Origin: a bacterium
Lineage (GTDB): Bacteria; Patescibacteriota; Minisyncoccia; Phycocordibacterales; UBA2100
Reading direction: 5' to 3'
Length of the DNA stretch: 64,000 nt
Assembly (NCBI GenBank): GCA_038128225.1
Contig: JAYPJF010000001.1
Span: 94,458 to 158,457 of the forward strand
The notes under the pieces are model-generated. The model had not been told where the DNA came from and did no database searches. It was given only the letters and a program-made list of their open reading frames with translations. The position numbers and the translations under genes are program-made. Of the stretch, positions 3,121 through 62,991 are shown one piece after another (position 1 is the first letter of the stretch; each line of letters opens with the position of its first letter).

Positions 3121-4554
3121 CTAGTTGGAAATAACTACCGAGACACTTTCAAGATTCGAGTTCGAGGGAGAACCTGTTCGCAGCGAAACAATGTATGTGC
3201 CCGCTGATGCGTATGTGTGCGTGAACTCTTTAGTCGTAACCGCGGCAGAGCACGAACCTGCACTCTGAGAAACAGCGGAGGTCCCATCACCCCACTCCAA
3301 TTCATAGTAGCTGCATGGTGACGCAATCTGGAACGTGCTTCGCATTTTGCGCGGATTATTATCAACACCAGGAACGAGTGTGAATTGCGTGTCTACCGTT
3401 GGCTGCTGTGCTGTGCCCGAGGTAGTAATTACCTGCGTCTGCGCAAGCTGCGCCTGTCCGGCACTTACCTGCTGTGCCGTCCCGCGGTATAAAGATGCAC
3501 TGAAAGATCCTCCATACTCATACCGGTGCGTTACTGAATACGTGCGCGGGGCACAAGAACCCGAATTGTAATAAAGTTCGGCATGCGTTCCGTCACCAAA
3601 AGCTAGTGTGTACGTCCCCCCCGCGCACTGTGAATCTTGGTTGATGGTCGCGCTGAATTGCGCAGTGAACGGTGCGTTGCCGCTCGCGTCTGCAACCGAG
3701 AGCGTACCGTACGCTGTTGGCGAAGGTAGTATTGGCGTTGGTGTAGGCTGAGTTGTTTGTCCGGTACCGACATTTATTACAATCGAGGAAGTGCGTGTTC
3801 CTGTTGAAATAGTAACTGGGTAGACACCAGGTACCGGATATGTGTGCACGTATGATTGCGTTAATTCATTACAGTACCCTGCCCCCACCGGTAAAATCAC
3901 GAGCGGCGATCCGTCCCCGTAATTTATAGTGTACGTAGCAGCTTGGCATGATTTAACAGTATTCGCGGTTGCGGTAATAGTTACCGTAAGAGGAGCAGGC
4001 CCAGAAACAGGCGAGGCTTTAAGGTATGCGCCTACTTGTCCTCCTGTTTGGTACCCGTATTGGTAAGCCGATTGGACAACACATCCTTCTGCAAGCGCCT
4101 TCTGTGTACGCGGACCAACGCATCCATACCATTCCCCTACCCATCCTGGCGGCGCATTAATACCGCAGGCTTTTTGAAAACTAGTAACCGCCGCTATAGT
4201 TAGAGGGCCGAACGTTCCAGAAACAACCCCCTCCGGGTAAATGTTCTTATCCTGCGCGAGAAACCGTTGCAGAGCCGCAACTTTCTCACCAGTTGCGCCT
4301 TCGTGTATGTGCTCTCCAAGAAACAGTCCTCCACTAAAAATAGAGCTGCCAGAAACACTGCCTGAAGGTAGCGTCGTTGGCGCAACAGGAGTGGTGACTG
4401 ACCCTGGAATGCTTGTTAGCTCTGCTTGAAGTGCTTGAATGCGCGCAAGAAGTGCCGAAACTTGTTGTTGTAGTTCAGTGAGGCTTTGTGCAGAGCTGAG
4501 CCATGGTACGGAAACAAGCACCGCAAGAGACAGAACGGCAAGGTATCTTTTCAT
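3121..4554 (-). CDS. Secreted protein: signal peptide, coiled coil, peptidoglycan-binding-like domain, and three PKD-like repeats
   Basis: The start is refined to the internal Met (MKRYLAVLSLAVLVSVPWLSSAQS, a signal peptide). The 4662 start would overlap the tRNA. Coiled coil LTELQQQVSALLARIQALQAEL. PGBD-like motif GEKVAALQRFLAQDKNIYPEGVVSGTFGPLTIAAVTSFQ. Three repeats carry (Y/F/W)GDG(S/T)...HTY, a PKD-like signature. Confidence 0.7.
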   Translation of the reverse strand: MKRYLAVLSLAVLVSVPWLSSAQSLTELQQQVSALLARIQALQAELTSIPGSVTTPVAPTTLPSGSVSGSSIFSGGLFLGEHIHEGATGEKVAALQRFLAQDKNIYPEGVVSGTFGPLTIAAVTSFQKACGINAPPGWVGEWYGCVGPRTQKALAEGCVVQSAYQYGYQTGGQVGAYLKASPVSGPAPLTVTITATANTVKSCQAATYTINYGDGSPLVILPVGAGYCNELTQSYVHTYPVPGVYPVTISTGTRTSSIVINVGTGQTTQPTPTPILPSPTAYGTLSVADASGNAPFTAQFSATINQDSQCAGGTYTLAFGDGTHAELYYNSGSCAPRTYSVTHRYEYGGSFSASLYRGTAQQVSAGQAQLAQTQVITTSGTAQQPTVDTQFTLVPGVDNNPRKMRSTFQIASPCSYYELEWGDGTSAVSQSAGSCSAAVTTKEFTHTYASAGTYIVSLRTGSPSNSNLESVSVVISN

Positions 4555-4603
4555 ACACGCATTGTCGCATGCTCTCTGCGTGCGACAAGATGAAATCCAC
4601 TTG

Positions 4604-4676
4604 TCCGCCCCCCTGGACTCGAACCAGGAACCGCAGAGGTATAAGCTCTGTGCTCTAACCATTAAGCTAGGGGCGG
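4604..4676 (-). tRNA. tRNA-Ile, anticodon UAU (decodes AUA)
   Basis: Cloverleaf read by hand on the minus strand. Acceptor CCGCCCC/GGGGCGG (7 bp), U8, D-stem GCTT/GAGC with a GG D-loop. Anticodon stem CAGAG/CTCTG with loop CTTATAC. Variable loop of 5 nt. T-arm CCTGG-TTCGAGT-CCAGG. Discriminator A. CCA is not encoded. Confidence 0.8.
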
Positions 4677-10823: not shown

Positions 10824-11211
10824 GGGGATGATTGGCTTCGACAAAGAGATACGGATCATACATATGCATGGCATAGCTGTGGTATCTATTCAAACTGCCA
10901 CAAACCAATAAGTGCAAACAAAACTGCACGTGGAATCTTGAGCCCAATTCAGGCAAAAGATCTCCAGTTCGCTTACGCATTAGCCTAAGCGACCGCTCGC
11001 CTATCGACATCCGATACATAGTTGCGAACGTCATACTTTCGGGTTCGACAACGCTTCAGTCTGGAAGCGACGTCTAAAGAAACATGACTCGAGTTTGTGC
11101 GATCTTGTGCATTCACAACGCGCAACCTCTAAACCTCTCTGAATGTACTACGCCTTGTAGATAGATGTGTGTTCCCTCTTTTGGACGGGGGTTCAATTCC
11201 CCCCATCTCCA
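10824..11211 (+). ncRNA. ssrA: tmRNA (ssrA), one-piece
   Basis: 5' end GGGGAUGAUUGGCUUCGAC. 3' tRNA-like end GGACGGGGGUUCAAUUCCCCCCAUCUCCA. Acceptor stem 7 bp with G3:U70. Internal tag frame ends ...AKDLQFAYALA then TAA (10986-10988). A terminator hairpin lies at 11228..11256. Located directly after smpB. Confidence 0.8.
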
Positions 11212-11227
11212 CATCAATAGACACGCT

Positions 11228-11843: not shown

Positions 11844-13202
11844 CTATTCGACGATAACGGTAATGCTCTTGCTTGCCATTGGCTGCCCACCGGGCACGGT
11901 GCTGCCTGTTTTCACCTTTGCGGTGAAATGAATCTGATACGTTCCCGCAGTGACGAATGTGTACGTAATACTCGAGCCTACTTTTGAGGTAAGGATGCCT
12001 GTGCTCACCGTTGCCCCGCTTGTTTGCGAACCCCAGATTTCAATTGATTGTTCAAGAGTCCCTGTGCCACTCGCTGAGAACGACCACGTCCCGGATTGCC
12101 CTGCAGAAAGTTTCGTCGGACCAGATATATCGCCAATGGTCGGCTTGCTGACACAACTGCCCGTGTACACAACATTCGCGCGGGCCGCTTTTGCAGCACA
12201 TGTATTTGTATATGTTTTTGGTTCCTGCTGCATACAGAGCATTGTTGCAACGCCTGTACCCCCAGCGTTCGCACATCCAGGAGGAATCGCGCACACAGGT
12301 GCATAGTCTTGTGTACACACACCTGTTTGTGACGGTACTTGCTGCCCTCCATTTCCGCCATCGATACTCCCTGGTGACGCAGCGCCCGATGTATCAGAAG
12401 TTGAAGTTGCTGTAGGGCACATAAACGCACATGAAGGTGGTGTACGCCCGACCCAGCTGCCGTCTGAGCACTTCTTTACATCCTGCGTACACACGTCCTT
12501 GCCTGTGTTTGAGAATGTTCCCGTACAATACCCCTGCATATATACCGCACACGCTTTTGCGGTGCACACTGCTGCTCCACCAGATGTTTCGCGTGAGCAC
12601 GTATTACAACCATCGAACCACGCTTTACAAGTTGCACCCGGTACAAATGGGCGTGTGTCGTTAAACGAACTTGGGCTTATCGAATTTATACGGACAGTCG
12701 CTGTGGCATCTGTAGCTACGGTGCATCGTGTTGCTATTTTCGCGCGCGTTTGTTTCCCAACAACTCCATACCCGTTTGTACTTGGAGATCCGGAGCAGAT
12801 GCCGAGTTCTCGACATTGAAACTTTTTGACTGCAGTTTCCGTAGCTGGTCCAAATGTCCCAACAATAGTGGTGTTAAAATCTCCCGTACCCACTAAAAAA
12901 CGTTGTAGTTCAGAAACAGACGTGTCGGCTGTTGAATCTTGCCCACCACGTTTTATATCTCGAGCAATTTGCGGACACACGGTGTCTGTATGCGCTGCTG
13001 CTGTGTTTGATGTCATACGCGTGTCAACTGAAACACCTCCCGCCGCATTGATCTGCGCCTGTAGAGAATTGACGAGCGCCATAAGCGACGCGATGCTGTC
13101 CAACAAGTCAGTCTGAGTTTGTGCTCGTGCCGAAGAAACTGCAAAAAACATGCTCGCAATCATTACGCCGATCACGAGAAACTTTGATGTATAAACGCGC
13201 AT
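11844..13202 (-). CDS. Secreted protein: signal peptide, coiled coil, PG-binding-like domain, Cys-rich modules including a Kazal-like domain, and a C-terminal beta (PKD-like) domain
   Basis: The start is refined to MRVYTSKFLVIGVMIASMFFAVSSARA (signal peptide). Coiled coil LQAQINAAGG. PGBD-like motif VSELQRFLVGTGDFNTTIVGTFGPATETAVKKFQ. Kazal-like CTQDYAPVC...KTYTNTCAAKAARANVVYTGSC. The module CKAWFDGCNTCSR is shared with the 61168 gene. Confidence 0.7.
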   Translation of the reverse strand: MRVYTSKFLVIGVMIASMFFAVSSARAQTQTDLLDSIASLMALVNSLQAQINAAGGVSVDTRMTSNTAAAHTDTVCPQIARDIKRGGQDSTADTSVSELQRFLVGTGDFNTTIVGTFGPATETAVKKFQCRELGICSGSPSTNGYGVVGKQTRAKIATRCTVATDATATVRINSISPSSFNDTRPFVPGATCKAWFDGCNTCSRETSGGAAVCTAKACAVYMQGYCTGTFSNTGKDVCTQDVKKCSDGSWVGRTPPSCAFMCPTATSTSDTSGAASPGSIDGGNGGQQVPSQTGVCTQDYAPVCAIPPGCANAGGTGVATMLCMQQEPKTYTNTCAAKAARANVVYTGSCVSKPTIGDISGPTKLSAGQSGTWSFSASGTGTLEQSIEIWGSQTSGATVSTGILTSKVGSSITYTFVTAGTYQIHFTAKVKTGSTVPGGQPMASKSITVIVE

Positions 13203-13338
13203 AGTATGCATGCAATTAATAGCTAATACTTGCAGTATACCAAGATACTCTCCTTCAGGCGCTGGGCGCATGTGAATTTACTGAGTAGCAATTGACCAAG
13301 ATCATTACACTAAGCTACTATCTCAGCGGCTCGAACCC

Positions 13339-22157: not shown

Positions 22158-24962
22158 CTAAATCCATCCACTGTTTGGTTTGAGTGCTTCCGGATTATAC
22201 GCCCCTGTAGAACTCTTATATCGGGCACGTATCTCTTCCTCAACCTGTTCACGTGGCCGCCCATAGCGCTCATATGATTGCTGTTTCAGTATGTCCACAC
22301 GCGAAAAATCAGTTTTCTCCGGTTTTAGTGTCTCAATATTGAATGGCTTTACCGGCCGACCACGTACCAAAAGCCGCAGGTACGCGTTGTAGTTATCGAG
22401 ATGCATAATATCTTGCGCCGCGAACTCTGGTTCAAACATAGTTGAAAGAAACTCCGCATCTTTTTCACCCACACGGAACACGCAGCGCGTACCTACGTTT
22501 CCAAATACCGCGTCTCGAATCTCATCGGTAAGTTGATCGATAAATTGGTGTGCGATACTTAGTACAAGACGGTATTTCCGTGCTTCCGAAAGAATCGTGG
22601 CAATAGACGGCGTTGTAAAATTCTGGAACTCGTCGATGTACATGTAGAAAGGTTTAATTTCGGCTTTCCCCACTAGATCCACACGCGAGAGTGCTGCGTT
22701 TAATATTTTTCCAACAAAGACAAGCCCTAAAAGCGACGAGTTTAATTCTCCCAGGCGCCCTTTTGAAAGATTGATAAGTAATATTTTGCGCTCGTCCATG
22801 ACGCTGCGGAAATCAAACGCGGAATGCTCTTGGCCAATAATGGGGCGCATAATTTCGTTTGCCAAAAAAACATCGAACTTGTTTGTCACATATTGTCCAA
22901 ACGCCTCGAGTTTTTGTTCTCCTTCCAATTTTGTAGCAATCCCCTGCCAAAATTCAACAATGAGCGGATTTTTACAGCGTGCAATTTTTAAGTTGCGAAA
23001 CGCTTCGTTGGTAAAAATGCGCGTAATATCAACCATCGTGTTTCCTGTTGCGGGGTCGTCCATGACCAAAAGCGCTGAGTTACGGAAATACTGCTCAAAA
23101 GCCGGACCAATTGATTCCGGAACCGAGCCATAGAGTTTTTTGAAAATGCCGATGAGCTCGTCGACTAAAAAAGTCTTTTGTTCTGGACGCCTCAGATCGT
23201 ATTCGAGCATATTAAGCCCCATCGGTCGTGGCAAATACCCGGGGTCAAAATATATAACATCTTGCTCGCGTTCTGGAGGAACCGCGGCAAGAATGTCTTG
23301 AATATCAGAACCGTGCGGATCGATATAACACACCCCTTCTCCGTTTCGGATATCTTGAATGATCATATTCTTCATCAGGCTCGACTTACCTGTGCCAGTC
23401 TGCCCGACTTCATAAAAATGGCGGAACCGATCTTCTTCCGCAAAATATACTTTTTGTTCTGACGCACCATGGCGATTGATCCCGAGTACTATCCCCTCTT
23501 CGGGCATGTCGGTTGGCGCAGGCGACTGTTTTGCACGCGACTGCTTCAATTCACGCGACGTGCGCACCCCCTCTGCGGTCAAGTGGTATATAGTAGTAAG
23601 TTCAGAAAAATTTAATGGGAGCGCGCGCGATACCTCCGGAACGCGCATTATGAAGTTGTTGATAACCCCTTCGCGTGTCCAACTTCCTGCTTCTTTAAAA
23701 ACAATACTGTTGCCCTGCGGGTCGCTAAACTGATTAAATGTTGACGCAAGGTTTTCTAAAATATCGCGGGCGCGCGCTTGCGTCTTCGCCGAAGCAAGAA
23801 TGCGGATATTCACCGGAACAATTCGGTTAGAGACTTTTTTACCAACACGTTCGGTGAGTTCTTGTTCAGCAGAACTCTCGGTGTTCTTCTTCTCGGGCAA
23901 AATTAATCCGGTGGTGAAGTCCTTTGCAAATTCACCAAGCATGGTTTCTGGGACTTTTCTTGCCTCCTTGAAAGACTTCCCTTTATGAAGCGCCTTAAGC
24001 ATTTTCTTGTAGTGCGCATTGTAGCGGTCCCCTTCGTTCCCTACGATGATCTGGAGCGCCGCACCTTCATCATGTTTGTGCAATTTTGCGAACGCTGAAA
24101 GCATGACGTTCATCGGGTCATGTTGGAACGTATCATACGTTTTAAGCGGCAACGCGGGATGTTCGGAGAGTTGTGCGTACGCGGCCACATGTTCACCATG
24201 CGAATTAAAAATATTATAGTCTCCGCGGCGCTCGTTCAGTTTTGCGTTTGGAAAGATTGAAAACAGGTGTCGTTCAAACAAATCCTTCTTGTTTGAGGGA
24301 ACCGCAATAAAAAACACCGCTTCTTCAGAACCTTCCGCGACAGCAATCTCCATTGAAAAGACGTTACTTTTACTCGAGGCGTTACCGCTCGCGATCGCAA
24401 GGAGCCCCGCGTACAGTTGCTCCATCGAAGCAAGAAGGTGCGCCAGGTCTCGTTGTTGTTCTTCTTTCTGTGTCGCTCCTTGCGGTTGAACTTCAAACAG
24501 CGTCATATGCAGCGCCCGCCACGTTTGTCCTTGTTCCTGTAAATAACCACCGACGGGCAACCCTTCGGCAACATAGCGCACCAACGCACGATGAAAATCA
24601 TCTTGGACATGTGGGTTACGCATGCGCGCCGAAACCGAAAGTGCATTTCTAATGCCGCGATCCTGCACCACGCGAAGCAACGCATCAATCTGTACGTCGT
24701 GCGTTTCTGGTTCTAGTTTGAGTGCCTCACGCACCACATCGTGCGTTGGCGTAATAACGGTCTCGTGCAACACTTCTGCCGGCGGCGTCTCGTCATATCT
24801 TTCGATTTCGCGCTTCGCGATTCGTTCACGCTCAAAAGAATCGTCATGCACCCCGAGCTCTTTCTCTTTTTCAGCAACACGCTTGCGCAAATAAACCAAC
24901 TCCTCTTCCGGAGTCGTAAAACGCTGCGGCGTATCGAGCGATATACGGGATCGTTCCGCCAT
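22158..24962 (-). CDS. Large P-loop ATPase of the VirB4/TraG/HerA-FtsK superfamily with an N-terminal domain of unknown function of about 450 aa
   Basis: Walker A GQTGTGKSS, Walker B YMYIDEF, and a C-terminal RKYRLVLSIAHQFIDQL motif. No transmembrane segment. Confidence 0.5.
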   Translation of the reverse strand: MAERSRISLDTPQRFTTPEEELVYLRKRVAEKEKELGVHDDSFERERIAKREIERYDETPPAEVLHETVITPTHDVVREALKLEPETHDVQIDALLRVVQDRGIRNALSVSARMRNPHVQDDFHRALVRYVAEGLPVGGYLQEQGQTWRALHMTLFEVQPQGATQKEEQQRDLAHLLASMEQLYAGLLAIASGNASSKSNVFSMEIAVAEGSEEAVFFIAVPSNKKDLFERHLFSIFPNAKLNERRGDYNIFNSHGEHVAAYAQLSEHPALPLKTYDTFQHDPMNVMLSAFAKLHKHDEGAALQIIVGNEGDRYNAHYKKMLKALHKGKSFKEARKVPETMLGEFAKDFTTGLILPEKKNTESSAEQELTERVGKKVSNRIVPVNIRILASAKTQARARDILENLASTFNQFSDPQGNSIVFKEAGSWTREGVINNFIMRVPEVSRALPLNFSELTTIYHLTAEGVRTSRELKQSRAKQSPAPTDMPEEGIVLGINRHGASEQKVYFAEEDRFRHFYEVGQTGTGKSSLMKNMIIQDIRNGEGVCYIDPHGSDIQDILAAVPPEREQDVIYFDPGYLPRPMGLNMLEYDLRRPEQKTFLVDELIGIFKKLYGSVPESIGPAFEQYFRNSALLVMDDPATGNTMVDITRIFTNEAFRNLKIARCKNPLIVEFWQGIATKLEGEQKLEAFGQYVTNKFDVFLANEIMRPIIGQEHSAFDFRSVMDERKILLINLSKGRLGELNSSLLGLVFVGKILNAALSRVDLVGKAEIKPFYMYIDEFQNFTTPSIATILSEARKYRLVLSIAHQFIDQLTDEIRDAVFGNVGTRCVFRVGEKDAEFLSTMFEPEFAAQDIMHLDNYNAYLRLLVRGRPVKPFNIETLKPEKTDFSRVDILKQQSYERYGRPREQVEEEIRARYKSSTGAYNPEALKPNSGWI

Positions 24963-59075: not shown

Positions 59076-59540
59076 ATGAGTGTCTGTATTTTTTGCGCCA
59101 TTGTTCGCGGAGATGCACCAAGTCACAAAATTTGGGAAGATGAAAAACATCTTGCGTTCCTTTCTATTTTCCCTAACACCGAAGGTTTCTCAGTCGTAGT
59201 CACCAAAGAACATTACCCGAGCTATGTTGCAGACCTACCGAAAGATGTCCGCACCGATCTGTTTAACGCTGCGCTCACTGTGGCAAAAAAAATCGACGCT
59301 GCATTTTCAGACGTAGGGAGAACAGGCATTTTGTTTGAAGGCTTTGGCGTCAATCACGTGCACGCCAAGCTGTTTCCCATGCACGGAACAAAAACCGACC
59401 TGTGGCAGCAACATACGTCGAAGGAGAAAAGGTTTTTCGAGCACTACGAAGGCTATATTTCTTCACACGATGCCGCCCGCGCCGATGACGCCGCGCTTGC
59501 AAAGACAGCTGAGTTGATCCGCACTACACCTATTGCGTAG
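59076..59540 (+). CDS. HIT family (histidine triad) protein
   Basis: CIFCAIVRGD and the HVHAKLFP triad. Confidence 0.7.
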   Translation: MSVCIFCAIVRGDAPSHKIWEDEKHLAFLSIFPNTEGFSVVVTKEHYPSYVADLPKDVRTDLFNAALTVAKKIDAAFSDVGRTGILFEGFGVNHVHAKLFPMHGTKTDLWQQHTSKEKRFFEHYEGYISSHDAARADDAALAKTAELIRTTPIA

Positions 59541-61113
59541 CACAGTCGCCGTACTGGTACGTGCCGCTCCCTGAGAGATACCCGTCGGTACAGTACCGAA
59601 TCTGTTTATATGGTTCACAAGTCTCACCCACTGGGGCAACTGCGCGAGAATAAAAGGCACGCGAAGCGCCGTGCGCCACCTCTTTCCCGTCAAGGGTACA
59701 TACTGCTGCGTCTCGTGCACTACACGTCGCGAAGGCGTAGATATTGCTGCCGCCCAACACGCCGTTGGTACATGTGCGCACCTCCTCACTCTGAGCGCAG
59801 GTGCGCCCAAATGGCACTTCAGATGCCGAGTAAAACTTTCCAGTTTTCGTATGCTCAACCAAAACACCATCGAGAATGCACGCTTTTTGATTTGATGGGG
59901 CACAGTATGAGAATTTATAAGAAGCTGTTCCGTTTAGTACTCCATTAGTACACGTACGCGACTGTTTTTTGTTTGCACAGCTCGCAATCGTATCAGTGCG
60001 GTCCGAATAAAAATCCTTACTGGCTCCATGGGCGACCTTCACGCTATCAAGCGTACACGAAAGTCCCGGGGTAACGGAGCACGCAGGGTGTACGTATGCT
60101 GAATCGCCGGATACATATCCGTCGTTACATACGCGCACAAGTTTGAAGTCGTCACATGATTGATTGTAAGGCACAATCGTTTTCGAAAAGAAACTACGCT
60201 GAGCACCATGAGTAAGCGTCGTACTTGTGGCGCTCGATGCAACCACCTCACACGAACGAGCGCTGGTCACCGCACACGTAGCGAATCGATACGTTGGGTC
60301 GCCCGACAACGTGCCGTCGTTACAGGTTCTTGTTTGGCCAAATGGCGCGCACTGTTGACCAAACAGCACGTCTCGTTGCTTGTAGAATGTCTTGCTCTGA
60401 CCGTGTGTGACTGTAACCCCATCAACCGTACACGACCCAGGAGTTGTGTTCGCTGTGCATGTAGGGAATGAATACGCAGGGTCTCCTGAAAGTACTCCGT
60501 TCATACACTTCCGGGGGATGCCGAGACATGATGCCCCAAAAGGAACTACACCCGATGTATATAGCGTGCGCGTTTCACCACTTGCAAGCACTGTCGTTCC
60601 AAGAATACAGTTGAGTACAGAAGGGGTGGGGGGAGGCGGCGATGGAATCACCACTGGAGTCCCGAGAGCACACACACGCACTAGTGCTGCCCGTGTTGCG
60701 GGACCAACCGCACCAAAACCGGTAGTCTCGACACTGCCGGAACTTACTATGTTCTGCTGGATTTGGAAACGTTCAACGGCGCGCGCGGTCAACGCTCCAA
60801 AATATCCGGTAATTTGAGCTTCAGGGTATAGTGCGGGTGTTTTCGCTAAAAATTGCTGCAACGCAGAAACATCGGTCCCTGAAACCCCTGGTTTAAGATT
60901 TCTGGCAATTGTCGGGCATGACCCTTGCGAAGTTGTTGTAGGAGTAACCGGAACCGTACCTCCAGTCCTTGCAGCCTGAATGCGTTGCTCTAATTGTGCA
61001 ACTTGTTGTAGTAGTGCTTGAATCTGAGCCGTGAGCTGTTCTGAGGTTTGCGCATGCACACTCCCCACACTTACGATAAACCCGAGTAAGGCGAGCGCCA
61101 GGATATTTCTCAT
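59530..61113 (-). CDS. Secreted protein: signal peptide, coiled coil, PG-binding-like domain, and six tandem four-Cys repeats of about 60 aa
   Basis: Signal peptide MRNILALALLGFIVSVGSVHA. Coiled coil LTAQIQALLQQVAQLEQRIQAAR. PGBD-like DVSALQQFLAKTPALYPEAQITGYFGALTARAVERFQ. Six repeats C.hDG..V.HG.S..FY......PFG..C.....R.C.NG.LSG...Y.F..C. Confidence 0.7.
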   Translation of the reverse strand: MRNILALALLGFIVSVGSVHAQTSEQLTAQIQALLQQVAQLEQRIQAARTGGTVPVTPTTTSQGSCPTIARNLKPGVSGTDVSALQQFLAKTPALYPEAQITGYFGALTARAVERFQIQQNIVSSGSVETTGFGAVGPATRAALVRVCALGTPVVIPSPPPPTPSVLNCILGTTVLASGETRTLYTSGVVPFGASCLGIPRKCMNGVLSGDPAYSFPTCTANTTPGSCTVDGVTVTHGQSKTFYKQRDVLFGQQCAPFGQTRTCNDGTLSGDPTYRFATCAVTSARSCEVVASSATSTTLTHGAQRSFFSKTIVPYNQSCDDFKLVRVCNDGYVSGDSAYVHPACSVTPGLSCTLDSVKVAHGASKDFYSDRTDTIASCANKKQSRTCTNGVLNGTASYKFSYCAPSNQKACILDGVLVEHTKTGKFYSASEVPFGRTCAQSEEVRTCTNGVLGGSNIYAFATCSARDAAVCTLDGKEVAHGASRAFYSRAVAPVGETCEPYKQIRYCTDGYLSGSGTYQYGDCATQ

Positions 61114-61167: not shown

Positions 61168-62991
61168 CTACCGTGCCGCGATGCACGAAGCGGTAAATGT
61201 TGTAGACCAGTAGTGATGATTCGCCCCCGCTGCACAGTGATACGCTCCGCCGCACATACCACCTACTGCAGTGTTATCGAATGTACATGCTCCCTCCGCG
61301 GTTGTGGGACACGGTGCGAATGCACAATTGGGTCCCGTGCGCCCTACATAGCTTCCGTCTGGACATTGTTTTGCTTCTTGTGTACAGACCACATCAGTTG
61401 CGGCTGCGCACTCACCCGCATACTTAAACACCGCTTTTTCGGCTTCCATTTGGCACTGATTTCCATATGTTTTTCCGTACTGACATTCATATGGATACGA
61501 ACCGAGAGCAAATTTCGAAACGAGGCAGTAGTATGGTGTCGCACAAACAGGCGCGTACTCCATTGTACAAGCAACAGGACCCCCACTTGAAACAGTTACC
61601 GTGATGGTTGTTTTTGCTTCTTTTCCTTCAGGGTCGCGCACCACAGCAGTTACTGTATACATCCCAGCCTTCGAATATGTATGAGTGAAAGTAGTTACTT
61701 GTCCAAAGCCGAGCGCGCTCGCGACTGCGTCAAGTGCATTCCAAAACCCAGTTTCGTCCCCCCAGGTCACTTTGTATGAGAGTGTTTTTTGTTCCGGGTC
61801 ACGTGCCTCTACGCTCCAGGTCCCTGTTTCGTTCACCGTAAGATGTGTCGGCCCGGAAAAACCACTAACCACCGGCGGTTGATTTTCGCGAACACCGTCG
61901 AAATATTCTTTACAGTACCCGGGAGCTTGCCATATACATGCCCTAAGCGTACACATCGCGACTGCGCCTACGGTGTCTCGAGAACAATCGTTACATCCAT
62001 CGTACCACGTCTTGCATGTCGGTGCTGGTTCAAACGGTTTATTGTCTATGCGACACTGACCTTCATATAAAAGCGTTGCGCCAGCAGCTTCCATAACACA
62101 AGTGTTTGAATATGTTTTTGGATCTGGTTGTTTGCACATCGCAGCACAATACGCTCCCGGAGGGCAGGTGTTTTCGCAACCTGTAGGTTGCCCACACACA
62201 GGACGGTATTCTTTTGTGCACGCCACGTTTCCACCAACGGTGATTTGAATTTTCGCCACCACCTCCGAACTCACCGGTGCCATACACAATGGGTTACCGA
62301 GGCACGGGTCGGTTATTTTGTTTAACGTCGCCGTGTACGTTCCCGCTTGCGTATACGTGTGTTTGTTTTCCCCAGGAGAGACACAAGCGTCAGCAGGTGC
62401 ACTACATTCAGTAGCAGCCTCTCGCCCTCCATCTCCGTACTCAACTAGATACGAAACACCTGCCGGTCGCAGACCACCAACCCACGAATTGAAAACTACA
62501 GTAAGTGGCGCCGCTCCTGTTCGCGGGTTCACCTCGAAAAGACCGTGTACACCGCACCACTTTTTAAAATAATTTTGCGTAATCGGCCCCACCACGCCCA
62601 CTGATTCAATTCCTTCACTGGATTGCAGTCTCTTTATCGCGGCGAGAGTCAGGCTTCCAAAGTATCCTGTTGGAGAGACGCCAAGATAGCCCTTGTCTTT
62701 AAGAAATTCCTGGAGCGCCGTGATGTGCTCACCAGAAGTACCTTGCCCCCAATTGCTGTTCTGGGCAAAAAAATCACATACGCGCACCCGTGCAGGATTG
62801 GCGGAACTCACTTGTATAACTGAGACACCAGTCGTCGAAGCCTGCTGCATGACGCCGATTTGTTGTCGCAGTTCAGAAATCCGACCTAAAAGAGAGCGGA
62901 TCTGTGTTTGTAATTCATCAACCGTGACCGCAGGTACAACAGTCGGAACCATGAGTAAAACTACCGCAAACCCAAGGATGTGTTTCTTCAT
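61168..62991 (-). CDS. Secreted protein: signal peptide, coiled coil, PG-binding-like domain, PKD-like domains, and two Kazal-like domains
   Basis: Coiled coil LQTQIRSLLGRISELRQQIGVMQQ. PGBD-like HITALQEFLKDKGYLGVSPTGYFGSLTLAAIKRLQ. PKD-like YKVTWGDETG and YLVEYGDGG. Kazal-like CTKEYRPVCGQ...KTYSNTCVMEAAGATLLYEGQC and CTMEYAPVCA...KTYGNQCQMEAEKAVFKYAGEC. Module CKTWYDGCNDCSR. Confidence 0.7.
   Translation of the reverse strand: MKKHILGFAVVLLMVPTVVPAVTVDELQTQIRSLLGRISELRQQIGVMQQASTTGVSVIQVSSANPARVRVCDFFAQNSNWGQGTSGEHITALQEFLKDKGYLGVSPTGYFGSLTLAAIKRLQSSEGIESVGVVGPITQNYFKKWCGVHGLFEVNPRTGAAPLTVVFNSWVGGLRPAGVSYLVEYGDGGREAATECSAPADACVSPGENKHTYTQAGTYTATLNKITDPCLGNPLCMAPVSSEVVAKIQITVGGNVACTKEYRPVCGQPTGCENTCPPGAYCAAMCKQPDPKTYSNTCVMEAAGATLLYEGQCRIDNKPFEPAPTCKTWYDGCNDCSRDTVGAVAMCTLRACIWQAPGYCKEYFDGVRENQPPVVSGFSGPTHLTVNETGTWSVEARDPEQKTLSYKVTWGDETGFWNALDAVASALGFGQVTTFTHTYSKAGMYTVTAVVRDPEGKEAKTTITVTVSSGGPVACTMEYAPVCATPYYCLVSKFALGSYPYECQYGKTYGNQCQMEAEKAVFKYAGECAAATDVVCTQEAKQCPDGSYVGRTGPNCAFAPCPTTAEGACTFDNTAVGGMCGGAYHCAAGANHHYWSTTFTASCIAAR

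What the first reader, a model, noticed from the sequence alone, without database searches (positions are those of the whole stretch)
59530..61113. Six tandem four-cysteine repeats of about 60 aa within one secreted protein
Residues from about 170 to 527 are six consecutive copies of a module with the invariant positions C-x-(L/V)DG-x-V-x-HG-x-S-x-FY...PFG-x-C...R-x-C-(N/T)-(D/N)G-x-L-(S/G)G...Y-x-F-x-C. Such regular intragenic repeats invite recombination and length variation and may form a beta-solenoid or bead-like stalk. I do not recognise the motif as a named domain.
Basis: seen in the sequence. Interest (0 to 1): 0.55.

Follow-up and report, generated by a model that had tools for sequence, protein, structure and literature searches.

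The report
Unnamed four-cysteine domain, six tandem copies
A secreted protein of a tiny Parcubacteria-type bacterium has a cell-wall-binding domain followed by six copies of a roughly 58-residue, four-cysteine module; the module is real and occurs in thousands of proteins, but it matches no family or solved structure in the libraries I could search.

Summary
ORF 59530-61113 (-) encodes 527 aa: a signal peptide, a helix, a PG_binding_1 domain, a Pro-rich linker and six tandem modules of 57-64 aa. The Cys spacing is C-x26-C-x8-C-x15-C. Repeat pairs score z = 10-24 above shuffles.

The modules share 25-45% amino-acid identity and no DNA-level repeat. They match homologues position by position, so they are ancient copies, not a recombination hotspot.

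AlphaFold gives six separate small all-beta domains (single module pLDDT 96.5), not a solenoid.

No Pfam, NCBIfam or PDB sequence match covers the module, and Foldseek finds no PDB fold match better than E = 0.5. Only faint Sushi/vWC/FnI likeness appears.

A profile of the module finds 3,844 cluster representatives, with up to 43 copies per protein. In CPR/Patescibacteria they usually follow a peptidoglycan-binding domain. In Bdellovibrionota-type proteins they follow an FQNC lipobox. Micavibrio, Myxococcota and some Proteobacteria also carry them.

Best reading: an envelope-tethered extracellular stalk or adhesin built from an undescribed domain family. Function is inferred, not shown.

The parts
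59530..61113 (-). Whole gene: 527-aa secreted protein plus stop codon
   Evidence: ORF listing. The identical protein is called on five public contigs with the same neighbours: PGK, the 607-aa paralogue, HIT and RecJ.
61051..61113 (-). Sec-type signal peptide, residues 1-21 (MRNILALALLGFIVSVGSVHA|QT)
   Evidence: Read from the sequence: a basic n-region, a hydrophobic core and VHA before the likely cleavage site, with no lipobox Cys. No signal-peptide predictor was available.
60964..61044 (-). Q/L-rich amphipathic helix, residues 24-50, possibly a coiled coil
   Evidence: AlphaFold helix H24-50. The segment is shared with three other proteins of the window. Oligomerisation is an inference.
60670..60918 (-). 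PG_binding_1 domain, residues 66-148, bracketed by Cys66 and Cys148
   Evidence: Pfam PF01471 E = 1.1e-6, 29.1 bits against a cut-off of 23. Foldseek of the full model matches the equivalent domains of CtpB, SleB, SleC, a phage endolysin and 1lbu at probability 1.00 and rmsd 2.4-3.1 A. C66 and C148 are invariant in 50 homologues.
60622..60660 (-). Pro-rich flexible linker, residues 152-164
   Evidence: pLDDT below 50 for residues 152-163. The sequence is PVVIPSPPPPTPS.
60451..60621 (-). Repeat 1, residues 165-221 (Cys spacing 26/6/15)
   Evidence: domain i-Evalue 4.5e-17.
60268..60444 (-). Repeat 2, residues 224-282 (26/8/15), the copy modelled alone
   Evidence: 3e-26. AlphaFold pLDDT 96.5.
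60073..60264 (-). Repeat 3, residues 284-347 (31/8/15; 5-residue insertion after C1)
   Evidence: 3.2e-16.
59896..60069 (-). Repeat 4, residues 349-406 (25/8/15)
   Evidence: 2.9e-19.
59716..59892 (-). Repeat 5, residues 408-466 (26/8/15)
   Evidence: 1.2e-21.
59533..59712 (-). Repeat 6, residues 468-527 (26/8/15). The protein ends 3 residues after C4.
   Evidence: 1.6e-22. Many 7-repeat homologues carry a further C-terminal helix that is absent here.
61168..62991 (-). Upstream paralogue (607 aa) with the same signal, helix and PG_binding_1 head but a different passenger: PKD domains plus Kazal-like Cys-rich segments
   Evidence: A 54-bp gap on the same strand makes co-transcription plausible, but this was not shown.

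Best explanation
The gene encodes a cell-envelope-tethered surface protein. After Sec export and signal-peptide cleavage, the N-terminal PG_binding_1 domain holds the protein non-covalently on the cell's own peptidoglycan. That domain appears to be stapled by a conserved Cys66-Cys148 pair. The preceding amphipathic helix may pair chains. A flexible Pro-rich linker then leads to six independently folded, roughly 58-residue all-beta modules, each presumably locked by two disulfides. Together they form an extended beads-on-a-string stalk projecting from the wall.

The module belongs to a large domain family that is absent from the libraries searched here. The family behaves as a mobile extracellular building block. 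In CPR/Patescibacteria it usually follows a peptidoglycan-binding domain. In Bdellovibrionota-type proteins it follows a lipoprotein signal. Elsewhere it is joined to propellers, PKD, beta-helix, esterase or glycosidase domains.

The residues conserved across the family are Cys, Gly, Tyr, one Arg and an NGxLSG turn, which look structural. The remaining positions vary freely, as in Ig, CCP or PKD spacer and adhesion modules. The most likely role is surface display and contact, either adhesion to a partner cell or matrix or a spacer for such contact.

Shown: the repeat, the domain family, the domain order, the PG-binding fold and the discrete-domain model. Inferred: the disulfides, wall tethering, extension and the adhesive role.
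For: - Repeat reality and significance.
- Domain order and PG_binding_1: sequence; fold, probability 1.00 to SleB, CtpB and endolysin PG-binding domains. PF01471 is listed among the non-covalent peptidoglycan-binding wall anchors of monoderm bacteria (PMC5817068).
- Discrete modules: the single-repeat model has pLDDT 96.5. The full model has pLDDT 86.9 and pTM 0.42, with six identical strand patterns and a disordered linker at residues 152-163.
- Cys invariance: the four Cys are present in 579 of 581 full repeats, and the other two cases are 1-residue alignment shifts.
- Family size: 3,844 cluster representatives at E <= 1e-3 and 2,480 at E <= 1e-10, with up to 43 copies per protein.
- Tethering types: of 258 retrieved proteins, 81 carry a PG-binding domain, 71 an FQNC lipobox and 26 another lipobox-like signal.
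- Partner domains are all extracellular types: PG_binding_1, RCC1, PKD, BNR/Sortilin, SASA, Flg_new, beta-helix, collagen, GH43, Somatomedin_B and PA14.
- The window holds three more proteins with the same signal, helix and PG-binding head but PKD or Kazal-like passengers. The head therefore acts as a general anchor for varied passengers.
- Highly expressed secreted proteins with PG-binding domains have been reported in archaea-parasitising Paceibacteria and proposed to act in host attachment (PMC10936435).
Against: - No binding partner, localisation or expression data exist for this protein.
- Model coordinates were not returned, so the disulfide pairing and the length of the stalk are not established.
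- No disulfide-forming enzyme gene was seen in the parts of the window for which gene and Pfam tables were retrieved.
- PG_binding_1 could bind a partner's wall rather than the cell's own.
- The family also occurs in free-living bacteria such as Allochromatium, Afifella, Methylomonas and Methylomagnum. A role specific to cell-cell contact is therefore not required.
Confidence: 0.6

Rival explanations
1. The modules are carbohydrate-binding (lectin-like) units. The array binds glycans of a partner cell or of the cell's own envelope with avidity from six copies.
For: In other proteins the module sits next to glycan-active or lectin domains. These are SASA esterase and a GH127-like segment; GH43, pectate-lyase-like beta-helix and BNR; PA14; and a PA-IIL lectin domain recorded for P0098. 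Two conserved Tyr residues (consensus positions 21 and 52) could stack on sugars.
Against: The conserved positions are mostly Cys, Gly and turn residues, and no conserved polar cluster is evident. The module co-occurs equally with non-glycan modules such as RCC1, collagen and PKD. It matches no known carbohydrate-binding family by sequence or fold.
Confidence: 0.15
2. The array is a multi-headed protease inhibitor, like tandem Kazal arrays, that protects the cell surface from proteases.
For: The modules are small, disulfide-rich and tandem. Paralogues in the window carry Kazal-like and pacifastin-like segments at sub-threshold scores. The family is common in predators that secrete many proteases.
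Against: No inhibitor family matches the repeats. The only hit is Haemadin at 15 bits against a cut-off of 25, over 14 residues. No conserved exposed reactive-site loop is apparent. Foldseek finds no inhibitor fold.
Confidence: 0.08
3. The module is a very divergent Sushi/CCP domain, so the protein is a bacterial CCP-string protein.
For: The length (about 58 aa), four Cys, all-beta content and beads-on-a-string arrangement are the same. The weak Foldseek hits are enriched in CCP-type folds: beta2-glycoprotein I, the CRF-receptor ectodomain, HpARI, factor H and factor XIII B.
Against: All those hits have E >= 0.1, probability <= 0.2 and TM <= 0.46. The Pfam Sushi model does not match any scanned protein carrying the module, even at E <= 1 for the window protein, P0258 and P0121. 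The Trp between C3 and C4 that is typical of CCP is absent; a Tyr lies in that segment. The loop lengths differ.
Confidence: 0.1
4. One reading: a recombination-prone, length-variable repeat region forming a beta-solenoid.
For: Copy number differs among distant homologues, from 2 to 43.
Against: There is no DNA-level repeat. Repeats map position by position onto homologues. Identical sequences occur across samples and the count is constant within close CPR clusters. AlphaFold shows discrete domains.
Confidence: 0.03

Closest known systems
Sushi / CCP / SCR modules (Pfam PF00084), e.g. factor H and beta2-glycoprotein I
   Same: A module of about 60 residues with four Cys, all-beta, used head to tail as an extended extracellular string. 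These folds are the most frequent among the (insignificant) Foldseek matches.
   Different: There is no sequence-profile match. The conserved Trp is absent. The C2-C3 and C3-C4 spacings differ. Structural similarity is not significant (probability <= 0.2, TM <= 0.46). Disulfide connectivity is unknown. The module is bacterial and tethered by a PG-binding domain or a lipid anchor.
vWC and fibronectin type I small disulfide beta modules
   Same: The best single Foldseek hit is a NELL-type module (9oz6_A: E = 0.5, probability 0.75, TM 0.48/0.65). FnI pairs align at rmsd 2.2 A over 49 columns.
   Different: The E-values are not significant, the Cys patterns differ and there is no sequence match.
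Thrombospondin type 1 repeat (Pfam TSP1_CCN, PF19035)
   Same: A short '...R-x-C' segment gives weak summed matches in proteins with many copies. P0121 scores 39 bits in total with no individually significant stretch, and P0110 has E = 6e-4.
   Different: The match covers only about 14 profile positions. There is no WxxW layer. The window protein has no hit at E <= 1.
Non-covalently wall-bound surface proteins with a PG_binding_1 anchor plus tandem Ig-like or PKD passengers, including the secreted PG-binding-domain proteins reported in Paceibacteria (PMC10936435)
   Same: The layout is the same: signal peptide, PG-binding anchor, then repeated beta modules. Three paralogues in this window use PKD or Kazal-like passengers on the same head.
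   Different: The passenger here is a domain with no model in Pfam-A or NCBIfam and no solved relative.
Closest actual relatives: 'peptidoglycan-binding protein' entries of Parcubacteria and Kaiserbacteria MAGs (MBI2048746.1, MBI4068374.1), and the Pseudobdellovibrio exovorus hypothetical protein WP_015469866.1
   Same: They carry the same module. The CPR proteins share the whole architecture at 44-51% identity. The P. exovorus protein has 15 copies.
   Different: The CPR relatives have 6-8 copies, and many add a C-terminal helix. The Bdellovibrionota-type proteins use a shorter 55-aa variant (Cys spacing 26/6/13) behind an FQNC lipobox.

Membership tests
Sushi/CCP (PF00084) | Match to the family profile | tested here: not met
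   No Sushi hit at E <= 1 for the window protein, nor for P0258 and P0121. No hit at E <= 0.01 or stricter (1e-4 to 1e-2) for 74 other proteins carrying the module.
Sushi/CCP (PF00084) | About 60 aa with four Cys | tested here: met
   Modules are 55-64 aa. Four Cys are present in 579 of 581 repeats.
Sushi/CCP (PF00084) | Conserved Trp between C3 and C4 | tested here: not met
   The family consensus between C3 and C4 is x-N-G-x-L-S-G-x3-Y-x-Y-x-S with no conserved Trp.
Sushi/CCP (PF00084) | CCP fold | tested here: inconclusive
Sushi/CCP (PF00084) | C1-C3 and C2-C4 disulfides | not testable with these tools
   Model coordinates are not returned. No natural variant loses a Cys pair.
PG_binding_1 (PF01471), N-terminal domain only | Profile match above the gathering score | tested here: met
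   29.1 bits against 23, E = 1.1e-6, residues 78-127.
PG_binding_1 (PF01471), N-terminal domain only | Three-helix PG-binding fold | tested here: met
   Foldseek probability 1.00 to the CtpB, SleB-N, SleC, AP3 endolysin and 1lbu domains, rmsd 2.4-3.1 A over 75-87 columns.
PG_binding_1 (PF01471), N-terminal domain only | Binds peptidoglycan | not testable with these tools
   This needs a sacculus pull-down.
Thrombospondin type 1 repeat | Profile match and the WxxW / RxR layers | tested here: not met
   No hit in the window protein. There are only summed, partial TSP1_CCN matches in many-copy relatives. No Trp motif is present.
Myxococcus cysteine-rich repeat (TIGR02232) and other NCBIfam repeat models | Profile match | tested here: not met
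   No NCBIfam model matches the repeat region at E <= 1 in the window protein, or at E <= 0.1 in P0258, P0110, P0063 and P0003.
Kazal, pacifastin or other small inhibitor families | Profile match on the repeats | tested here: not met
   The only hit is Haemadin at 15.3 bits against a cut-off of 25, over 14 residues.
Beta-solenoid | Short coils stacking into one continuous helix of strands with no domain boundaries | tested here: not met
   AlphaFold gives six separate units, each with the same five or six strands and linkers. pTM is 0.42, as expected for independent domains.
Recombination-prone (contingency-type) intragenic tandem repeat | Near-identical DNA units, with copy number varying between close strains | tested here: not met
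   TRF finds none. The best direct DNA repeat is 35 nt at 60-74% identity. Identical protein occurs in several samples. Close CPR clusters keep six copies. Repeats map position by position onto homologues.
Sec (SPase I) secreted protein | N-terminal signal peptide with an A-x-A-type site and no lipobox | tested here: met
   Read directly from the sequence: MRNILALALLGFIVSVGSVHA|QT. No predictor was run.

The most novel reading that the evidence does not exclude
The four-Cys module is an undescribed domain family, possibly with a new small disulfide fold. It may be a surface signature of bacteria that live attached to other cells, used to make or space the contact with host or prey. Among 118 verified genomic hits, 41 are CPR/Patescibacteria, 25 Bdellovibrionota, 4 Micavibrio and 8 Myxococcota, Bradymonadales, 'Delta' or SAR324. 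From my own knowledge, not tested here, this is far above the share of those groups among bacterial species. One member comes from the epibiotic predator Pseudobdellovibrio exovorus, with 15 copies. Free-living carriers also exist.
Probability: 0.15. Interest if true: 0.75.

Novelty: new variant of a known kind. Interest (0 to 1): 0.45.

Why it matters
Surface proteins of CPR/Patescibacteria are the presumed tools of their attachment to host cells, and almost all are unannotated. This finding defines a compact, confidently modelled module that has no entry in Pfam-A, NCBIfam or the PDB yet occurs in thousands of proteins. It also defines the two ways the module is tethered to the envelope.

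Naming it would annotate several thousand 'hypothetical' or merely 'peptidoglycan-binding' proteins. It would also give a handle for tagging and localisation in CPR co-cultures and in Bdellovibrio-like predators. If the taxonomic skew survives a proper test, it points to shared contact machinery in unrelated epibionts and predators.

If not, this is one more extracellular spacer domain: useful for annotation but not surprising.

Tried and rejected
- DNA-level repeat detection (TRF, the repeat finder) found nothing usable, so slippage or recombination models were dropped.
- Pfam and NCBIfam scans of the window protein and of 79 relatives carrying the module gave no family on the repeats. The only signals were a spurious Haemadin hit and partial TSP1_CCN hits.
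- A profile search of PDB sequences gave zero hits at E <= 10.
- Foldseek of the single module against PDB and viral BFVD found nothing at E < 0.5. The full-length model matches only through its PG-binding domain.
The single protein found no relative among species-representative genomes. A degenerate DNA pattern for R-T-C-x-N-G-x-L-S-G-S-Y then worked.
- Loss of Cys pairs in natural variants could not reveal the disulfide pairing, because the Cys are never lost.
- The promoter and terminator scan around the gene was uninformative: counts were within shuffle expectation.
- Four literature searches found no description of the module.
- Conservation is about even across repeats 1-6 (0.39-0.49). 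No distal 'tip' repeat stands out.
Full report
**1. What is in the sequence**

The finding's coordinates are exactly one minus-strand ORF, 59530-61113, of 527 codons plus a stop. The product begins with a typical Sec signal peptide, MRNILALALLGFIVSVGSVHA|QT. It contains 26 Cys. Two lie at residues 66 and 148. The other 24 form six sets of four, spaced C-x26-C-x8-C-x15-C, with 7-8 residues between sets. Small deviations occur in copies 1, 3 and 4.

Aligning the six units (residues 165-221, 224-282, 284-347, 349-406, 408-466, 468-527) gives 25-45% pairwise identity. The shared pattern is C..ld...v.hg....fys...vp.g..C......R.C..G.lsG...Y.f..C.

**2. Is it more than chance?**

Yes.
- Every pair of units scores 68-142 by Smith-Waterman, against 22-24 +/- 4.5 for shuffled partners (z = 9.6-24.5). 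No shuffle exceeded 53.
- An HMM built only from repeats of other proteins finds six domains and 383 bits in the real protein. It finds at most 5 bits in 200 shuffles of the repeat region.
- No other ORF of the window carries the module.

Within this protein only three aligned Cys columns, the Arg, two Gly and one Tyr are strictly invariant in the alignment.

**3. Age of the repeats**

The repeats are old, not dynamic. TRF finds no tandem DNA repeat in the gene. The best direct DNA repeat is 35 nt at 60-74% identity.

Repeat i of the window protein is most similar to repeat i of the six-repeat homologues P0013 and P0014. In the seven-repeat homologues P0002, P0003 and P0022, window repeats 2-5 match their repeats 3-6. 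The end repeats map less cleanly: R1 matches repeat 1 (repeat 2 in P0022) and R6 matches repeat 7 only in P0003. The simplest reading is that the window protein lacks a counterpart of their repeat 2. The duplication therefore predates the divergence of these proteins, which are about 45-50% identical.

The exact 527-aa sequence is called on five contigs from several samples. In the CPR clusters at 90% identity or more that I examined, members all keep six repeats, and their length differences come from start-codon calls.

**4. Architecture**

Pfam finds PG_binding_1 at residues 78-127 (E = 1.1e-6, above the gathering score) and nothing on the repeats. NCBIfam finds nothing on the repeats either.

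AlphaFold on an alignment of 145 single repeats gives a very confident all-beta module: pLDDT 96.5, with 57 of 59 residues above 90. The full-length model was built on 50 homologues and has pLDDT 86.9. It shows, in order:
- a helix at residues 24-50;
- the helical PG-binding domain;
- a disordered Pro-rich linker at residues 152-163;
- six units with the same strand pattern, each above pLDDT 90.

The global pTM is only 0.42, as expected for independently folded beads. This argues against a beta-solenoid.

Foldseek of the full model matches the PG-binding domains of CtpB, SleB, SleC, a phage endolysin and the Zn DD-peptidase 1lbu at probability 1.00. Cys66 and Cys148, which bracket that domain, are invariant in 50 homologues. 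I infer that they form a disulfide.

**5. Is the module a known domain?**

- No PDB chain matches a profile of the module, even at E <= 10.
- Foldseek against PDB gives nothing better than E = 0.5. The list is populated by small disulfide beta modules: a NELL-type module, CCP/Sushi modules, the CRF-receptor ectodomain, vWF TIL/E modules, the vWC of CCN3 and FnI. TM-scores are 0.35-0.50 and probabilities mostly below 0.2.
- Nothing turns up among viral models.
- Pfam scans of 79 further proteins carrying the module, and NCBIfam scans of four of them, found no family on the repeats. The exception is partial TSP1_CCN matches of about 14 positions, which add up only in proteins with very many copies.
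- Four literature searches found no description.

Within the libraries available, the module is unnamed and has no solved relative. Whether its fold is new cannot be decided here.

**6. The family**

A word-seeded search with the repeat region found 155 proteins. The best are 44-51% identical proteins with a PG-binding domain, from Parcubacteria, Kaiserbacteria and Minisyncoccia MAGs. They carry 2-9 copies, most often 6 or 7.

Across 597 repeats there are two main spacing classes: 26/8/15 (272 repeats) and a shorter 26/6/13 (178 repeats). The family consensus is sC..dG.tvahG.s.tfY..s.v..g..C.s..q.RtC.nG.LsGs..Y.yasC.

An exhaustive profile search of 1.84 billion cluster representatives found 3,844 proteins at E <= 1e-3, 2,480 at E <= 1e-10 and 929 at E <= 1e-30. 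One 2,688-aa protein has up to 43 copies.

One member is a hypothetical protein of the cultured epibiotic predator Pseudobdellovibrio exovorus JSS (WP_015469866.1, 998 aa, 15 copies).

Of 258 retrieved proteins:
- 81 have a PG-binding domain, mostly with the 59-aa class of repeat;
- 71 start with a lipoprotein signal ending FQNC, almost all with the 55-aa class;
- 26 have another lipobox-like signal;
- the rest include many fragments.

Other partner domains are extracellular types: RCC1 and BNR/Sortilin propellers, PKD, SASA esterase, Flg_new, beta-helix, collagen, GH43, Somatomedin B, DUF4214 and PA14.

**7. Taxonomic spread**

An HMM on the six-frame translations confirmed 118 of them as true module-bearing ORFs. 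By record title they divide as follows:

| Group | Loci |
|---|---|
| CPR/Patescibacteria | 41 |
| Bdellovibrionota | 25 |
| Myxococcota, Bradymonadales, 'Delta', SAR324 | 8 |
| Micavibrio | 4 |
| Other (see below) | 40 |

The 'other' group holds assorted Alpha- and Gammaproteobacteria, including cultured Allochromatium humboldtianum and Afifella marina. It also holds Planctomycetes, an Acidobacteriaceae MAG, a Bacteroidales MAG and unclassified bacteria.

The share of epibionts and predators looks high. However, the pattern favours the short repeat class, the scan was truncated and no background frequencies were computed. I treat the skew as a lead only.

**8. Context in the window**

The window is a core region of a small CPR-type genome. 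It contains the ribosomal protein operon, SecY, FtsH, SmpB and tmRNA, RecJ, PGK and ComEC.

Three other ORFs share the signal, Q/L-rich helix and PG_binding_1 head with different passengers:
- 3121-4662, with three PKD domains;
- 11844-13271, with Cys-rich Kazal-like segments plus PKD;
- 61168-62991, directly upstream on the same strand, with PKD plus Kazal-like segments.

The head is therefore a reusable wall anchor in this organism. The six-repeat stalk is one of several passengers.

**9. Mechanism proposed**

- Shown by computation: Sec signal, PG-binding fold, flexible linker and six discrete, confidently modelled modules of a large extracellular family.
- Established knowledge: PF01471 is a non-covalent peptidoglycan-binding wall anchor (PMC5817068).
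- Published report: secreted proteins with PG-binding domains are highly expressed in host-attached Paceibacteria and were proposed to act in attachment (PMC10936435).
- Inferred: two disulfides per module, an extended stalk tethered to the cell's own wall, and a role in surface contact or adhesion or as a spacer.

The rivals (lectin array, protease-inhibitor array, divergent CCP) are not excluded and are scored separately.

**10. Verdict**

The recombination idea is not supported.

The module is a genuine, widespread domain family that is unnamed in the resources available here. It represents a new variant of a familiar kind of thing, the tandem disulfide-stabilised extracellular module on an envelope anchor. 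Interest is moderate. It is valuable for annotation and for CPR and predator surface biology. It is speculative, but testable, as a shared contact module.

Noticed in passing
window 3121-4662 (-), 11844-13271 (-), 61168-62991 (-), 59530-61113 (-): Four proteins in 64 kb share the same head (signal peptide, Q/L-rich helix, PG_binding_1) but carry different passengers: three PKD domains; Cys-rich Kazal-like segments plus PKD; PKD plus Kazal-like segments; and six four-Cys modules. This looks like a modular family of wall-anchored surface proteins.
   Followed up: partly
window 61168-62991 (-) and 11844-13271 (-): The two paralogues share further Cys-rich motifs with no family assignment. Examples are C-K-[TA]-W-[YF]-D-G-C-N-x-C-S-R (a pacifastin-like sub-threshold hit), VCTQ..K.C.DGS.VGRT.P.CAF, and Kazal-like C..EY.PVC...TY.N.C segments with long insertions.
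   Followed up: no
window 60670-60918 (-), residues 66 and 148: The two Cys bracketing the PG_binding_1 domain are invariant in all 50 aligned homologues. This suggests a disulfide staple not generally described for this domain.
   Followed up: no
homologues P0002 and similar (C-termini); window protein end at 59533: Most seven-repeat CPR homologues end in an extra amphipathic helix of about 30 residues (e.g. ...QVAAALAAMEELLKDALAKLGSWF). The window protein and its closest six-repeat relatives lack it.
   Followed up: no
proteins P0030, P0036, P0052, P0060-P0067, P0124, P0126, P0127, P0258: Relatives without a PG-binding domain start with a strikingly uniform lipoprotein signal ending [SV]-F-Q-N-C-[SA], found in 71 of 258 proteins. 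They use the shorter 55-aa repeat variant.
   Followed up: partly
L077 1190-6337 (Proteobacteria bacterium UBA6503), also L056 and L066: Two large adjacent ORFs with 6 and 7 modules sit side by side, next to a third ORF cut at the locus edge. Further copies lie elsewhere in the same genome, giving a local paralogue cluster.
   Followed up: no
window 4603-4676 (-): ARAGORN calls a tRNA-Ile with anticodon TAT (UAU), an uncommon way for bacteria to read AUA. It overlaps the spurious 5' extension of ORF 3121-4662, whose real start is probably the Met of MKRYLAVLSLAVL.
   Followed up: no
window 10824-11212 (+): A tmRNA gene with tag peptide ANKTARGILSPIQAKDLQFAYALA. SmpB is encoded nearby.
   Followed up: no
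window 59530-59540: The 3' ends of the repeat gene and of the convergent HIT-family gene (59076-59540, +) overlap by 11 bp.
   Followed up: no
window 22158-24962 (-): A 934-aa protein with DUF8128 and a weak TraG-D_C match lies between the adenylate kinase / Met aminopeptidase genes that follow the ribosomal-protein operon and an NDK gene.
   Followed up: no
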